NCBI GenBank assembly: GCA_951406725.2
Contig: OX597842.1
Span: forward strand, 24,552,001-24,616,000
Direction of reading: 5' to 3'
Source of the DNA: Octopus vulgaris
Taxonomy: Eukaryota
DNA: 64,000 nt
Shown: positions 33,001-54,000 of the stretch, one piece after another
Layout: the number at the start of each line of letters is the position of its first letter
Numbering within the stretch: the first letter of the stretch is position 1
Made by a program: the position numbers

Positions 33001-36000
33001 ACTTTTTAATGAAAAGGATTTATCACAAATATCACAGTGATATGGTTTCTCTCCTGTATGAATGTATTTGTGTTTAGTAAGGTTACTGTTATGAGAGAAT
33101 GATTTACCACAGATATCACAGTGATGTGGTTTCTCTCTTGTATGAATGAATTTGTGAGAATCAAGGTTACATTTGTGAGTGAATGATTTACCACAAATAT
33201 CACAATGATATGGCTTCTCATGAGCATGAATAAGTTTGTGTTTAGTTAAAGAACTTCTTATTGAAAAGGATTTATTACATATATCACAGTGATATCATTT
33301 CTCTCCTGTATGAATGTATTTGTGAGAAGTCAGGCAACCTTTTTGAGAGAATGATTTACCACAAATATCACACTGATGTGGTTTCTCTCCTGTGTGAATG
33401 TATTTGTGAGAATCAAGGTTATATTTTTGAGAGAATGATTTACCACAAATTTCGCAGTGATATGGCTTTTCATGAGTATGTGAAAGTTTGTGTTTAGTTA
33501 AATCACTCCTTAGTGAAAAGGATTTATCACAGATCTCGTATTGATATGGTTTCTCTCCTGTATGAATGTAATTGTGAGTTTTAAGGTGACTTTTTTGGGA
33601 GAACGATTTACCACAGATGTCACAGTGATACGGTTTCTCTCCTGTATGAACTGAGTTGTGACAAGTAAGGCTACTCCTATGAGAGAATGATTTACCACAA
33701 ATACCACATTGATATGGTTTCTCTCCTGTATGAATGTATTTGTGATGAGTAAGATGATCTTTCTTAGAGAATGATTTACCACAGATATCACAGCGATATT
33801 GCTTTCCACTTGGATCAATACACTTGTGAACAGTGAGATTTGCTGTATTAGAAAAAGTCTTTTTACAGATATCACATTGGTCTGATAATTTTTCTCTTTC
33901 TCTTGTCATCTCCGGCGGATTCATTATTCTTCTGCAGTATGCAACACCAAAATATATTTTTCTTTTCTTCTTTATAAATGTCTTTGTAGATTCAAATACT
34001 TCTACTGCTATATTTACAGCAAATCTGATCTTCTCGAATATCTGAAGATAATACAAAGACCTTCACAGATTTTTCAAATTCAAACAGAATGTAAAATACT
34101 GGCAATGAAGAAAACAAACGTTCGAATTAATTCCAAAGAAATATTTCACAGTTATTCACCATAGATTTGTAATAGAAACAAGGTTATATATATTATTTAT
34201 AATATCTTCCATTAGTCTTCAAATGATGATCAATATTCATGATGTATCTGATGTAAAAACTCCTTTATACCACTAACATCTCATATTCTGAAATGACACA
34301 GAAACAGTAGAAGATATAGGAAAGACTTAAAAAGCAGAGATTCAACTATAAAAAATATTACTACATTTTCATAATAATAAACTGTTTATATAAACCTTAA
34401 CCCGAATAATTAGTCTCTATACACAGACTTCCGTTCCTTTGCCTTCAGATATTACGTAAAATGTTAAACTACAAAATATTGGACAATAACTTCCTACTAT
34501 CTTCAGAAATGTGATAAGTCACTGTTGTTTAGCCCGGAATCATCCCTGGCTGAACAGGTCTATTAATGAAATTAGGTTGTGTTCACGACTTTTAAAATAA
34601 TAATAATGAAATTACTGTATACAGTGCTCAGGTGCACCACAACTTGTCAAAAGTGTGTATAAAGTATATGCAGTAATGTACAAATGTCTGGAAAGTGAAC
34701 AGTGTATGAGTCAGATACTTGATTGCGTGTGTATGGAGGGGAGAAAATCGGGTGTATTGTTGGCGAATCTGAGGAAGCATGGAAAGAAGCCCGTTGTATA
34801 TATGTGTATATGTATGTTTGTGTGTGTGCTTATGTGTCTGTGTTTGTCACACTAACATCGCTGGACAACCATCCAGTGTCAAATTAATCACAGAACTTGA
34901 GGCAATCCAACGAAGCTACACAAAGAAGATAGCCTCTGTGCAGCATATGGGCTATTGGGAAAGACTCAAGAGATTAAGACTCTATTCCTTAGAGCGTAGG
35001 CGAGAAAGATATGCCATAATATACATCTGGAAGATCCTAGAAGGACTTGTCCCAAACTTTGGCATCGAGTGTTACACAAATACTAGAACTGGGAGCCACT
35101 GCATAGTGCCAAGGACTACAAATTTGCCATCAAGATATAGGACAAGATACTGTGATAGCCTGGGCTTCAGAGGTTCACAGCTCTTCAATATCCTCTCGAA
35201 GGACCTGAGAGACCTGCATGGGGTGGATGCAGATGTCTTTAAAATAAAACTGGATCTCTTCCTGTCAGGTGTCCTAGATGAACCAACTTCACGGCAGGAG
35301 GTGCAGATGAGGGCAGCTGCATCGAACTCTCTCATGCACAAAATGGCAATTGCTAAAAAGCATTCGTGAAGTAAAATCATATAGCAACACCAAATATAAT
35401 TTATCTAATTTTGACACAGTTTGGCTAACCGAATACGGTTGCTTAAAGCTCTAGTTAAGAATGCGAATGTCCAGTTCTATCTCATTATTATTATCATTGT
35501 TGTTGTTATTCTTTTGCACCGGCAGCCAGAGTGTTTGCCATTTCGTGGTGTGTCCGCCCATCCCACCCCCATCACCTATACTGGAAGTCCCCATGTTCTA
35601 ACCCCCATTGGATGCCTATCCCCTGAACACCTCCAATGGCTTAGATGCTCCCCCATCCATACTTAGTGTTTATCTCCTGTGGAATGCAGTGATAATTTAG
35701 TGCACAAAATAATGGTGTAGTGTGTGCAAGTTGAAGGCTATTGTATGTTTATGAGTTCTGTCAAATTCAAGCTTTCTTTTCAGGTACCTGATGCTGCTGT
35801 CCCCCACCTCAGGGTCTTGCAGGCCCACACCTTCCACAACCTCAGAATTGGCACATTGAAAGATAGGTCTGGTGAGATTGTTGAGATTCTTGAATGGAGC
35901 CATGTAGATTTGTGCTGCTTCCAAGAAGTAAGGTGGAGAGGAAGTTCTACTAGGTTCCTCACAAGCAAAGAACGTAGGTATAAGATTTTCTGGGTAGGGA

Positions 36001-51000: not shown

Positions 51001-54000
51001 GGTGAGAAGCCATATCACTGCGATATTTGTGGTAAATCATTCTCTCAAAAAGGTAGCCTTATTTCTCACAAATCCATTCATACAGGAGAGAAACCATATC
51101 ACTGCAATATCTGTGGTAAATCCTTTGTAGTGAGAAGTAATTTAACTGCTCATGAACTTACTCACACTGATGAGAGGCCATATCAGTGTGATATCTGTGG
51201 TAAATCATTCTCTCGTAAAAGTAACTTTAATAGACACAAATACATTCATACAGGAGAGAAACAATATCACTGCAATATATGTGGTAAATCCTTTGTATTA
51301 AGAAGTTATTTAACTGCCCATGAACATACTCACACTGATGAGAGGGCATATCAATGTGATATCTGTGGTAAATCATTCTCTGGAAAAAGTAACCTTACTA
51401 GACACAAATACATTCATACAGGAGAGAAATCATAGCACTGTGATATCTGCAGTAAATCATTCTAAGTCTATTCATAAAGGAGACAAACTACGTCACTGTG
51501 ATATCTGTGGTAAATCATTCTCTTGGGAATGTGCTATATATACTCATAAATGTATTCATACAAGAGAGAAGCCCTTTCACTGTAAGAGGTGTGGCAAATC
51601 ATTGTCTGTGGAACAATATTTAACTAATCACAAATACATTCATACAGGAGAGAAAGCACTGTAATATCTGCAGTAAATCATTCTGCGTGAGAAAATATTT
51701 TTATCACAAATCCACTTAGATTGGGGAGATATTGTATCACTGTGATCATCATCATCATCGTTTAGCGTCCACTTTCCATGCTAGCATGGGTTGGACGGTT
51801 CAACTGGGGTGTGGGAAGCCAGAAGGCTGCACCAGGCTCCAGTCTGATCTGGCAGTGTTTCTACAGCTGGATGCCCTTCTTAACGCCAACCACTCCGTGA
51901 TTGTAGTGGGTACTTTTTACGTGCCACCGGCAAAGGTGCCAGACGGAACTGGCAAACGGCCACGTTCGGATGGTTCACTTATGTGCCACCGGCCTTGGTA
52001 TCACAGCTACAAATTCCATTGATGTTGATCGATTATGACTTTGATTTTTGGTTTTGATATCTGTAGTAAATCATTCTCTTAGGATTATGTTGTTTAACTA
52101 ATTTTAAATGCATTCATACAGGAGAGAAGACATATTGCTGTGTTATCTGTGCAAAATCATCCTCTTAATGTAATTTAACTAAACCTGATTTATTCATATT
52201 GATCAATAACAATACCAGTGATAAAATGGGGAATAAAATACAGCAATTGTATTACTTTTTTTGAGACAAATAAATTTTTTACATTTTCCTCATTTGCATC
52301 AACTCATTAATTATGATGTGTGTGGTTTTCATTCAAACAATTTTAATTACATTAATTTGCTGTTTTCTTGTGGATATATTATTCCGACACCATTGTGTCA
52401 CATTCCAGTTCCCAACGATGATCAGTTGTTCTCTGCTGGACATGCTTAGGCTATCCCACGATCTGCAGCCTATAATCTAATGAACAATATGTGTCCATAT
52501 CTTGTACTGGGTACACTACATGGAGTTTCTCCTGACATCTTTTCTACATGCCGAGCAGGGCCATCTCTCTGACAAGATCTGTCTTTGGTCTTTGCTAAAT
52601 TTACTGTATAGTTTTTCAATCCAGATCTTGCTTCCATACCTAAAATTTGGGATCTTTTCCTTTTGAACGGTGCTTTTCAACACAATTTCTAGTTAACTAA
52701 ACACTTTTAAACTTCGTATACTATTAGAATGTGTTTATAAAACATCATTTTTTCTTGGCTTTATTGAGAAAATTCTATAGTTTGTAAGATATTTCGTCTG
52801 AAAATTCGAGTATTTTGGCAATTTTAACTGATCGCTGACCTCCATTTAGGTAAATAACATTCTGTGCATAATGAATATGTCCCTCCTTTAAGAAACAGAT
52901 TGGGTTTATTTACATTTGTGAAGAAAAAAAGATACCATTCCCCCACCCCGAACCCTAAATCTAAAAGAGATTGAAATGCAATAGATCGATACTAGGGCCA
53001 TAATTATGGATGACAATTTCATACGACACCGCTACGGAAAGTGGGATTTTTTTCTAGCGGTGTCAAATGAAAATGTCACCCATAATTATGGCCCTAGTAT
53101 CGATCTATTGCATTTCAATCTATTTTAGAGTTAGAGTTAGGGGAGTGGGAAGGGTATCTTTTTTTTCTTCACAAATGTAAATAAACCCAATCTGTTTCTT
53201 AAAGGAGGGACATATTCATACATCACGGAATATTTACCTAAATAGACTCCAGCGATTGGTTAAAATTGCCAAAATACTCGAATTTTCAGACGAAATATCT
53301 TACAAACTATAGAATTTTCTCAATAAAGCCCAGAAAAAATGATGTTTTATAAACACATTCTACCAGTATACGAAGTTTAAAAGTGTTTAGTTAACTAGAA
53401 ATTATGTTACAAAGTGCCGTTCAAAAGGAAAAGATCCGAAATTTGTTCTGTAATTTTGGTAGGGATTCAGCAATAATAACAAGGTCATCAGCTTCGAAGA
53501 GATCCCAAGGGCAGCCAATCTTACCAACCACTCATCTCTCCCTAGCTTCTCTATTTCTCACCAAATAATAGAGTAGGGGACTCTGTCAAAAGCTTTTTCC
53601 ATGTCAACAAAATCCAAATGCAAAGATATATCTTTGACCAAGTACTTCTGCTTTTGCCTCACCAGGAAGATAGCATTGCTGGTGCTTCTACTTGATACAA
53701 TTCTACACCTTGATCTATGGAACTTACATTTATATATGAGGAGACCTATTGAGTCAAGTACATCAACATCAAAAAATCAAATGGAAATTGTAGTTGTGAT
53801 ACCTGTGCCGGTGGCAAGTAAAAAGCACCATCCGAACATGGCTGATGCCAGCACCACCTTGACTGGCTTCCTTGCTGGTAAAAAGCACCAACCGATCATA
53901 GCCGTTGCCAGCCTTGCCTGACACCTGTGCTGGTGGCATGTAAAATGCACCCACTACACTCACGGAGTGGTTGGCATTAGGAAGGAATTTAAGATTGGCT

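What the first reader, a model, noticed from the sequence alone, without database searches (positions are those of the whole stretch)
34288..51435. B2 and B3 lack their own first exon: possible alternative terminal ZNF exons of C1/C2
Seen: B1 has an intron and first-exon module upstream. In B2 and B3, homology to B1 stops at CTGGACAAC (34868, ~49357) and gives way to LINE fragments and the 3' flank of the co-oriented C gene. Their acceptors (34288-, 49934+) are intact, and B3 has the cleanest ORF in the window. Inferred: the C first exon (donor at 42298 or 40989) could splice to either the C or the B finger exon ~7 kb away. One promoter would then choose between whole DNA-binding arrays, a cassette logic reminiscent of clustered variable-exon genes.
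Basis: inference. Interest (0 to 1): 0.7.

Follow-up and report, generated by a model that had tools for sequence, protein, structure and literature searches.

The report
Promoterless zinc-finger copies behind a neighbour
Two copies of a zinc-finger gene have lost their own leading exon and lie just downstream of a related gene on the same strand; they are most likely young stranded duplicates, but they could in principle borrow the neighbour's start, and RNA data would settle this.

Summary
The window carries nine zinc-finger (ZNF) exons from three families (A, B, C). All nine keep an identical 19-nt acceptor. A profile search finds only seven first-exon modules, and none belongs to B2 or B3.

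B1/B2/B3 homology ends at CTGGACAAC. That point lies inside a repeat that is whole in B1. In B2/B3 the repeat is cut by the 5'-truncated end of a LINE, so the loss is derived.

B2 and B3 are not two independent cases. They lie in the arms of an inverted duplication whose C-to-B spacer is 98.9% identical, so one truncation was copied.

The first exon is non-coding, so splicing from C exon 1 to B is mechanically possible. The introns needed (6.7-7.6 kb) resemble A1's 6.6 kb intron.

Nothing beyond youth supports that splicing:
- C1 and C2 keep their own poly(A) module (two AATAAA) ahead of B.
- The C and B acceptors are equal.
- B2 has a nonsense codon and C1 a frameshift.
- B3's intact ORF has a neutral probability of 0.05-0.5.

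No transcripts or related genomes could be searched. The best reading is young promoterless duplicates. Read-through splicing remains a testable minority reading.

The parts
49935..52383 (+). B3 finger exon. The 5'UTR starts at 49935. The CDS is 50299-51435 (378 aa, 12 canonical fingers). The family poly(A) module is at 52227-52383. B3 has no first exon of its own.
   Evidence: B3 is the only one of the 8 in-window arrays that reads from the family ATG to the family stop without a lesion.
49356..49934 (+). Remnant of the B-type intron kept by B3. It includes the truncated 3' part of repeat R and the acceptor 49916-49934.
   Evidence: The stretch 49356-50345 is 96.4% identical to B1 19487-18500 over 993 columns.
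48856..49364 (-). 5'-truncated 3' fragment of a LINE (C-terminal part of ORF2), antisense to B3, abutting the breakpoint. Its mirror copy on the B2 side is at 34861-35369 (+).
47478..48855 (.). Rest of the C2-B3 spacer. It is G+C-richer, repeat-derived sequence. It contains ORF pieces that look like a LINE RT C-terminus (47630-47950, +) and a LINE endonuclease (48051-48504, -), plus an (AAT)n run near 48700.
   Evidence: LINE identity is not shown: Pfam finds nothing, the Atlas gives weak leads only, and there is no similarity to P0241.
42144..42411 (+). C2 first-exon module. It is a non-coding leader whose last exon base is 42298, followed by GTAAGT. The module is cut off upstream at about 42181 by the inner edge of the inverted duplication.
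44241..47477 (+). C2 finger exon. The ATG is at 44568 and a nonsense TAG at 45776-45778. Five more in-frame fingers follow, up to the family stop near 46205. R and SINE insertions lie at 46697-47315, and the poly(A) module with AATAAA at 47320 and 47353 is at 47313-47477.
40876..41138 (-). C1 first-exon module, with its last exon base at 40989. It keeps the longer upstream stretch shared with the B1, A2 and A3 modules.
36754..39482 (-). C1 finger exon. The ATG is at 39156, and a +1 T frameshift lies 36 nt after it. The array has 504 nt (6 fingers) fewer than C2. The poly(A) module is at 36910-36754.
31727..34287 (-). B2 finger exon. The acceptor is at 34288-34306 and the ATG at 33924. An in-frame TGA lies at 33295-33297, after finger 6 of the 17 found by the finger pattern. 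The poly(A) module is only partial (31796-31727). B2 has no first exon of its own.
17381..20448 (-). B1, the reference copy with its own leader. The first-exon module is at 20448-20179 (donor 20292). The 1381-nt intron holds a complete repeat R (19631-19398). The acceptor is at 18911-18929 and the ATG at 18546. One extra C (CC>CCC) shifts the frame after finger 5.
32935..51288 (.). Inverted duplication that carries C1-B2 and C2-B3. The inner edges are at 41107 and 42181, with a spacer of about 1.07 kb. The high-identity part ends inside the B finger arrays, at about 33709 / 50514.
   Evidence: The C-to-B spacer shows 40 mismatches and 2 gap openings in 3500 columns (98.9%). The B arrays are 88-94% identical, with indels of 168, 84 and 110 columns.

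Best explanation
B2 and B3 are young 5'-truncated duplicates of a B-type ZNF gene. They are not a built-in second choice of the C gene.

The ancestral B gene looked like B1: a non-coding leader exon, an intron of about 1.4 kb containing a repeat (R), and one finger exon holding the whole ORF and its own poly(A) module.

In one copy the intron was broken inside R. The break was joined to the 5'-truncated end of a LINE and other repeat-derived DNA. This placed the finger exon 2.5 kb behind the poly(A) module of a co-oriented C gene and removed the leader exon and promoter (shown).

That C-to-B arrangement was then copied in inverted orientation, or spread by arm-to-arm conversion. One edge of the copied tract lies inside the B finger array. 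This gave the B2 and B3 pair (shown as structure; mechanism inferred).

The intact acceptors and B3's intact ORF reflect how recent this is, together with finger-array conversion. They do not show selection for use (inferred).

I expect transcription from the C leader mostly to splice to the proximal C acceptor and end at C's poly(A) module. Any C-leader-to-B transcript would be a minor read-through product (inferred, untested).
For: - 7 first-exon modules serve 9 finger exons, and none lies near B2 or B3.
- R is complete in B1, where it aligns with 4 other R copies across the breakpoint. In B2 and B3 it is cut at the same base. LINE ORF2 homology starts at that base. The truncated state is therefore derived, and it is the same event in both copies.
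- The spacer between C and B is 98.9% identical between the arms over 3500 columns. Identity falls to 88-94%, with finger-sized indels, inside the B arrays.
- In the 5'UTR and 3'-intron region B1, B2 and B3 differ by only 1.1-1.5%. An unchanged 19-nt acceptor is therefore expected by default.
- The neutral probability that B3's 1134-nt CDS has no lesion is 0.05-0.53.
- The cluster decays freely. Lesion counts are A1 2, A2 at least 3, A3 3, B1 1, B2 1, C1 1, C2 1 and B3 0, at least 12 in 8 arrays. About 1.8 lesion-free arrays are therefore expected by Poisson.
- Every in-window finger exon has the family poly(A) module (partial in B2). C1 and C2 keep both AATAAA hexamers, and these are the only AATAAA on the sense strand between the C2 stop and the B3 acceptor.
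Against: - B3 is the single array of the 8 in the window without any lesion, and it is the one lacking a promoter module.
- Its acceptor and polypyrimidine tract equal those of C2.
- The leader is non-coding, so any leader can serve any finger exon. C3 shows such a swap has happened.
- A1 has a 6.6-kb intron, so the 6.7-7.6 kb introns needed are not out of range, if A1 is expressed.
- Framework residues of B3 against B1 and B2 give omega 0.24-0.32. However, synonymous divergence in the arrays (dS 0.24-0.28) far exceeds flank divergence. The arrays are therefore mosaics and this ratio cannot be assigned to B3's own lineage.
- No expression data of any kind were available.
Confidence: 0.55

Rival explanations
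1. Transcripts that start at the C leader exon (donor 42298 or 40989) skip the C finger exon and its poly(A) site. They splice to the B acceptor (49934 or 34288). One promoter then yields mRNAs for either of two complete ZNF proteins, as alternative last exons or cis-splicing of adjacent genes.
For: - C and B lie on the same strand, and the acceptor 19-mer is identical in both.
- The leader is non-coding, so there is no frame constraint.
- The intron size needed resembles A1's 6603 nt.
- C3 shows that leaders and finger exons have been recombined.
- B3 is lesion-free, and on the same arm C2 keeps a 403-aa ORF. On the other arm both C1 and B2 are broken.
- Read-through splicing between adjacent co-oriented genes is a known process (abstracts of PMC4450057 and PMC5053695).
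Against: - C's own poly(A) module, with two AATAAA, is intact between the two acceptors.
- The proximal acceptor is not weaker than the distal one.
- Everything cited in favour is expected of a copy about 1% diverged.
- The pattern 'both intact on one arm, both broken on the other' arises by chance in 1 of 3 arrangements of two broken genes among four.
- B2 has a nonsense codon.
- There are no transcript data.
Confidence: 0.2
2. B3 is transcribed from a new start site of its own. The site would be a cryptic or repeat-derived promoter in the spacer (47478-49356) or in the retained intron remnant (49356-49934), with or without use of the old acceptor.
For: The spacer is repeat-derived and G+C-richer than its surroundings. 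The B3 ORF is intact, and the 5'UTR with its short upstream ORF is unchanged.
Against: - There is no copy of the family's promoter and leader module.
- The LINE piece at the breakpoint is a 3' fragment lacking the element's 5' end, and it is antisense to B3.
- The endonuclease-like piece, if it marks a LINE 5' region, points away from B3.
- There are no transcript data.
Confidence: 0.15
3. The B finger exons receive a leader in trans, from a leader-exon transcript made elsewhere in the cluster, as in the mod(mdg4) and lola loci of Drosophila.
For: - The leader modules are short and highly conserved. Their conservation extends about 130 nt past the donor.
- Trans-splicing of common 5' exons to variable 3' exons is known for mod(mdg4) and lola (abstract of PMC13490949; passages of PMC1947980).
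Against: - 7 of 9 finger exons have a leader in cis, 0.76-6.6 kb upstream on the same strand.
- Trans-splicing of B would still need a promoter to transcribe the B exon.
- No second U1-type site was seen in the conserved intron part (my reading).
- Nothing was tested.
Confidence: 0.03
4. The inverted duplication, and hence the B2/B3 pair, is an assembly artefact (a fold-back chimera). Some of the frameshifts would then be sequencing errors.
For: The two 1-nt frameshifts lie in short homopolymers: B1 CC>CCC and C1 TT>TTT. Parts of the arms are 100% identical over 250-500 nt.
Against: - The arms differ by 40 substitutions in the spacer, a 504-nt difference in the C arrays, an insertion of about 500 nt in the C2 intron, and different B array lengths.
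- The arms have a non-palindromic 1.07-kb centre.
- The inverted symmetry continues outward at 92-98% identity to the A2 and A3 genes.
Confidence: 0.05

Closest known systems
5'-truncated (unprocessed) duplicate genes and pseudogenes in tandem ZNF clusters evolving by birth and death (general knowledge; ZNF turnover context from passages of PMC10547256)
   Same: The copy keeps intron sequence, the acceptor, the finger exon and the 3' end, but lacks the promoter and first exon. It arose by segmental duplication and rearrangement with a retroelement at the junction. Neighbouring copies carry nonsense and frameshift lesions.
   Different: B3 itself has no lesion. It sits in sense orientation 2.5 kb behind an apparently complete gene whose leader is non-coding, so rescue by read-through is unusually easy to imagine.
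Read-through or conjoined transcripts; cis-splicing of adjacent genes (abstracts of PMC4450057, PMC5053695 and PMC4777538)
   Same: Two adjacent co-oriented genes. An upstream donor could join the acceptor of the downstream gene's second exon, with the intergenic region spliced out.
   Different: Here the downstream gene has no first exon at all, so read-through would be its only cis source of a leader. No transcript evidence exists for this locus.
Drosophila lola and mod(mdg4): common 5' exons joined to alternative 3' exons, most with zinc fingers (passages of PMC1947980; abstracts of PMC13490949, PMC12692577 and PMC6237743)
   Same: One 5' part with a choice among downstream finger-encoding terminal exons, each with its own 3' end.
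   Different: In lola and mod(mdg4) the common exons encode a shared BTB domain, and there are 20-30 or more variable exons. Here the shared exon would be non-coding, each finger exon holds a complete ORF, and there are only two per leader.
Clustered protocadherin-type variable exons (recalled, not read here)
   Same: A tandem set of similar large exons in one orientation.
   Different: As I recall it, each protocadherin variable exon is a 5' exon with its own promoter, spliced to shared 3' constant coding exons. Here the polarity is reversed, there is no shared coding part, and B lacks a promoter module.
Large palindromes or inverted segmental duplications kept similar by arm-to-arm gene conversion (general knowledge)
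   Same: Two arms of about 9 kb with a spacer of about 1 kb, patchy identity with tracts of 100%, and genes in mirror order.
   Different: Identity is uneven: 95-100% in the C part, 98.9% in the spacer and 88-94% in the B arrays. One edge of the high-identity tract lies inside a finger array. Conversion itself is not shown.

Membership tests
5'-truncated duplicate gene / unprocessed pseudogene | Homology to a complete paralogue that includes intron sequence (so not a retrocopy) | tested here: met
   B3 49356-50345 is 96.4% identical to B1 19487-18500, covering 578 nt of intron and the acceptor.
5'-truncated duplicate gene / unprocessed pseudogene | Promoter and first exon absent | tested here: met
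   nhmmer --max finds 7 modules, none within 34288-37100 or 47100-49934. The next best hit has E = 0.85.
5'-truncated duplicate gene / unprocessed pseudogene | Disabling lesion in the coding sequence | tested here: inconclusive
   B2 has an in-frame TGA at 33295-33297. B3 has none.
5'-truncated duplicate gene / unprocessed pseudogene | Not transcribed or not translated | not testable with these tools
   No transcriptome or eukaryotic genome collection was available.
Alternative last exons / cis-splicing of adjacent genes | Adjacent, same strand, upstream donor and downstream acceptor intact | tested here: met
   The donor is at 42298 (AG|GTAAGT). The acceptors at 44240 and 49934 are identical 19-mers.
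Alternative last exons / cis-splicing of adjacent genes | Read-through of the proximal poly(A) site and junction-spanning transcripts | not testable with these tools
   C2's poly(A) module, with two AATAAA, is intact. This argues for termination but does not exclude read-through.
lola / mod(mdg4)-type locus | Common 5' exons encode a shared protein domain (BTB) | tested here: not met
   The conserved ATG lies in the finger exon. The frame upstream is closed: the ORF opens at 50161 in B3, at 44562 in C2 and at 9124 in A1. Pfam finds only C2H2 fingers in B3.
lola / mod(mdg4)-type locus | Many alternative finger-encoding 3' exons behind one common part | tested here: not met
   There are at most two finger exons (C, then B) per leader. 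7 of 9 finger exons have a leader of their own.
Clustered protocadherin-type variable exons | Each variable exon has its own promoter and is spliced to shared 3' constant exons (feature recalled) | tested here: not met
   B2 and B3 lack a promoter module. Each finger exon ends in its own poly(A) module, partial in B2, and no shared downstream exon follows.
Non-LTR retrotransposon (LINE) fragment at the breakpoint | Homology to ORF2 proteins that carry reverse-transcriptase and AP-endonuclease domains | tested here: met
   Residues 31-191 of the ORF 34773-35369 match residues 814-974 of the 984-aa protein P0241 (63% identity, E 2e-60). 6 of 6 long hits scanned have RVT_1 and Exo_endo_phos_2. 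The fragment itself holds no Pfam domain.

The most novel reading that the evidence does not exclude
B3 is the only lesion-free array in the window, and it has no promoter of its own. In this reading it is kept alive as an alternative last exon of C2. The non-coding C2 leader (donor 42298) is spliced either to the C2 array or, after read-through of C2's poly(A) module, to the B3 array 7.6 kb away. One promoter would then deliver two different complete ZNF proteins. This would be a simple, newly born form of the lola-type 'one 5' end, several finger exons' logic, created by a retroelement-associated truncation in a rapidly duplicating ZNF cluster.
Probability: 0.15. Interest if true: 0.55.

Novelty: new member of a known kind. 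Interest (0 to 1): 0.3.

Why it matters
If B3 is simply stranded, the locus is a clean, datable snapshot of how ZNF clusters make and lose genes. Five features show this:
- a non-coding leader module that is swapped between families;
- a retroelement-linked truncation;
- an inverted duplication whose edge lies in a finger array;
- finger arrays that diverge far faster than their flanks;
- single-lesion pseudogenes.

If instead B3 is served by the C2 leader, it would show how an alternative-last-exon transcription-factor locus can arise in one step from a tandem pair. Because the leader is non-coding, no reading-frame compatibility is needed. Either outcome can be decided with ordinary RNA data from the source organism.

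Tried and rejected
1. Identifying the organism or existing gene models.
- The whole-B3 search gave only generic ZNF hits of at most 59% identity.
- The N-terminal 56 residues had no word-sharing candidate among proteins of 207-662 aa.
- 0 of 7 window ORFs are present as exact sequences in the collection.
- The LTR-element pol gave at best 76% identity to an unnamed protein, and named hits were scattered over several phyla.
- The taxon stays unidentified.

2. Pfam on the spacer ORFs gave no family. The Atlas gave weak leads only. 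One cluster had Exo_endo_phos on 14% of its members, at score 0.94. All other scores were below 0.85. BLASTP of the two other spacer ORFs against the LINE protein P0241 was not significant.

3. The Rfam scan of the window gave 0 matches.

4. dN/dS as a test of B3 function was rejected. The overall ratio was 0.43-0.49, helix positions 1.1-1.9 and framework 0.24-0.32. Array dS (0.24-0.28) is many times the flank divergence (1-4%). The arrays are therefore mosaics, and the ratio cannot be tied to B3's lineage.

5. I considered the idea that family B was born as a downstream exon, because repeat R otherwise sits in the 3' flanks of A and C. I set it aside. R has defined ends like a mobile repeat and is complete in B1. 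B1's intron also carries C-intron-like segments on both sides of R, although the two upstream ones are in swapped order.

6. I first took the 243-nt block after each array for a gene-linked 3' module. It is a dispersed SINE-like repeat, and in C1/C2 it is inserted in the opposite orientation.

7. Albertin et al. 2015 could not be read because it is not held.

8. Structure and complex prediction were not used, because no claim here depends on them.

9. The closed collections (metagenome contigs, viral contigs) were not searched. Genome contigs holds only bacteria and archaea and was also not searched. No related locus was therefore examined.

Full report
**What is in the window.**
The window is A+T-rich (32-49% G+C per 2 kb). 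It holds nine C2H2 finger exons in three families:
- A1 (ATG 9184, +), A2 (24133, +), A3 (60185, -)
- B1 (18546, -), B2 (33924, -), B3 (50299, +)
- C1 (39156, -), C2 (44568, +), C3 (63942, +; runs off the window)

B3's product is made of C2H2 fingers only. I do not take the window for human. The best database ZNF is 59% identical. The family-specific N-terminus has no word-sharing candidate. The organism could not be named.

**Gene model shared by the families.**
- All nine copies share sequence from about 110 nt upstream of an exact 19-nt acceptor, TGTTTCTGTGTCATTTCAG, down to the start codon (9 of 9 exact, 0 expected by shuffling).
- About 365 nt of conserved 5'UTR lies between the acceptor and the ATG. 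The start context is AATAATGAAT.
- The frame upstream of that ATG is closed: the ORF opens at 50161 in B3, 44562 in C2 and 9124 in A1.
- Seven copies have, 0.76-6.6 kb upstream on the same strand, a conserved module of about 270 nt ending in AG|GTAAG (7 of 7).
- The first exon is therefore a non-coding leader.
- Each in-window finger exon also ends in a conserved module of about 160 nt carrying two AATAAA. The module is only partial in B2.

**Checking the observation.**
- nhmmer --max with a profile of the seven modules finds those seven (E <= 7e-65) and nothing else. The next best hit has E = 0.85 and lies in a finger array. B2 and B3 therefore have no leader module.
- B1 homology to B2 and B3 stops at 19487 / 34869 / 49356, at CTGGACAAC. 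This string occurs only at those three places.
- The stop point lies inside a dispersed repeat (R). R is complete in B1 and aligns there with four other copies. In B2 and B3 it is cut at the same base.
- The ORF that begins there matches, from its residue 31 (about nt 34863), the last 160 residues of proteins of about 980 aa (63% identity, E 2e-60). 6 of 6 long hits scanned carry reverse-transcriptase and AP-endonuclease domains. A 5'-truncated LINE, antisense to B, therefore sits at the break.
- The truncated state is derived.
- Further upstream comes repeat-derived DNA, then C's poly(A) module, a nested SINE-like repeat and R, then the C array.
- Two other 'LINE' pieces in the spacer remain leads only.

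**B2 and B3 are one event.**
- C1-B2 and C2-B3 are the arms of an inverted duplication with inner edges at 41107 and 42181 and a centre of 1.07 kb.
- The C-to-B spacer differs by 40 substitutions and 2 gap openings in 3500 columns, which is 98.9% identity.
- Identity drops to 88-94%, with indels of 168, 84 and 110 columns, inside the B arrays from about 33709 / 50514.
- The mirror symmetry continues outward at lower identity to A2 and A3.
- One copy's upstream region was therefore copied onto the other, with an edge inside the finger array.

**How informative are the intact acceptor and ORF?**
- In the 5'UTR and 3'-intron region B1, B2 and B3 differ by 1.1-1.5%. An unchanged acceptor is therefore the default.
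- For B3's 1134-nt CDS, 5.9% of single changes create stops.
- With per-lineage divergence of 0.55-1.8% and an assumed indel-to-substitution ratio of 0.05-0.1 (the spacer itself shows 2 gap openings to 40 mismatches), the neutral chance of no lesion is 0.05-0.53.
- Lesions elsewhere:
  - A1: 2 frame changes
  - A2: at least 3 lesions
  - A3: 3 frame changes
  - B1: one extra C
  - B2: one TGA
  - C1: one extra T, 36 nt after the ATG
  - C2: one TAG
- That is at least 12 lesions in 8 arrays, so about 1.8 clean arrays are expected by Poisson.
- dN/dS was not usable. Array dS (0.24-0.28) far exceeds flank divergence, which points to finger shuffling or conversion.

**For and against C-leader-to-B splicing.**

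For:
- C and B are on the same strand and have equal acceptors.
- The leader is non-coding, so there is no frame constraint.
- The introns needed are 7636 and 6701 nt, against 6603 nt in A1, which holds an LTR element.
- C3 has an A-type leader fused to a C-type intron, so leaders are interchangeable.
- C2 and B3 are the better-preserved pair, while C1 and B2 are both broken.

Against:
- C's poly(A) module is intact, and its two AATAAA are the only ones on that strand before B3.
- Nothing favours skipping the proximal acceptor.
- B2 is broken.
- All the 'for' items are what a very young copy shows anyway.

Read-through splicing of neighbours is known (abstracts of PMC4450057 and PMC5053695). 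So are loci with alternative finger exons (lola: passages of PMC1947980; mod(mdg4): abstract of PMC13490949). Those loci share coding BTB exons and have many variable exons, which is not the case here.

**What was left out or unchecked.**
The coding sequence lies in one exon, and searches used that exon alone.
- No transcript data and no eukaryotic genome collection were available.
- Whether C3 is followed by another leaderless B exon lies beyond the window.

**Verdict.**
The functional inference is open. The most likely reading is a young promoterless duplicate (confidence 0.55). Interest is modest.

Noticed in passing
window 2715-8561 (-): A near-complete LTR retrotransposon lies inside A1's intron. 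Its 582-584-nt LTRs (2715-3296 and 7978-8561) are 98.8% identical. It has four overlapping ORFs in different frames: gag-like (DUF7041), protease, RT-RNase H and integrase. The insertion stretches the A1 intron from about 0.75 kb to 6.6 kb.
   Followed up: partly
window 49981-50028 (B3), and the same place in all nine copies: A short upstream ORF starting ATGAATATTGATCAT is conserved in the 5'UTR after the acceptor. By my reading of the alignment it has 15 codons in A and B and 13 in C. Further downstream are a conserved ATG|GTGAAT and a TTCAG| pair that could be a mini-intron of about 120 nt.
   Followed up: no
window 61747-62364 and 60814-61440: C3's leader module is of A type. It is an inverted copy of A3's module (95.6% identical), fused near 62359 to a C-type intron (96.1% identical to 42980-44626). 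Leader modules are therefore shuffled between families.
   Followed up: partly
window 20179-21809, 40876-42411 and 61165-62024: Six of the seven leader modules form three head-to-head pairs (B1/A2, C1/C2, A3/C3). Their donors are 0.63-1.4 kb apart, which suggests divergent promoter regions. Conservation of each module runs about 130 nt past the donor into the intron.
   Followed up: no
window 50299-51435 against 18546-17381: The B1 and B3 finger arrays differ at 12% of aligned sites (dS 0.24). Their upstream flanks differ by 1.3-3.6%. The changes are concentrated in some fingers and in helix positions (omega 1.1-1.9). This points to finger-level conversion, shuffling or diversifying change.
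   Followed up: partly
window 52643-53444; related copies at 15431-16130 and 1214-1588: An 800-nt stretch is its own reverse complement at 90% identity, like a fold-back element. It lies downstream of B3, and related copies lie downstream of B1 and near the window's start.
   Followed up: no
window 19398-19631, 12580-12814, 27466-27700, 27888-28116, 37324-37528, 46697-46901, 55492-55681 and 55834-56083: Repeat R is about 235 nt long, has an internal CA/TA microsatellite, and always lies in the same orientation as the nearest ZNF gene. In C1 and C2 a second, SINE-like repeat of about 243 nt is nested in it. Other copies of that 243-nt repeat follow the B arrays and lie further downstream of A1 and A2.
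   Followed up: partly
window 45776-46205 (C2) and 51433-51760 (B3): Each family ends its ORF at a stop inside a finger linker (C: GEKP*; B: GEKS*/GEKA*; A: GDKP*). Decayed fingers follow the stop. The arrays were therefore once longer, and the stops are old and shared within a family.
   Followed up: no
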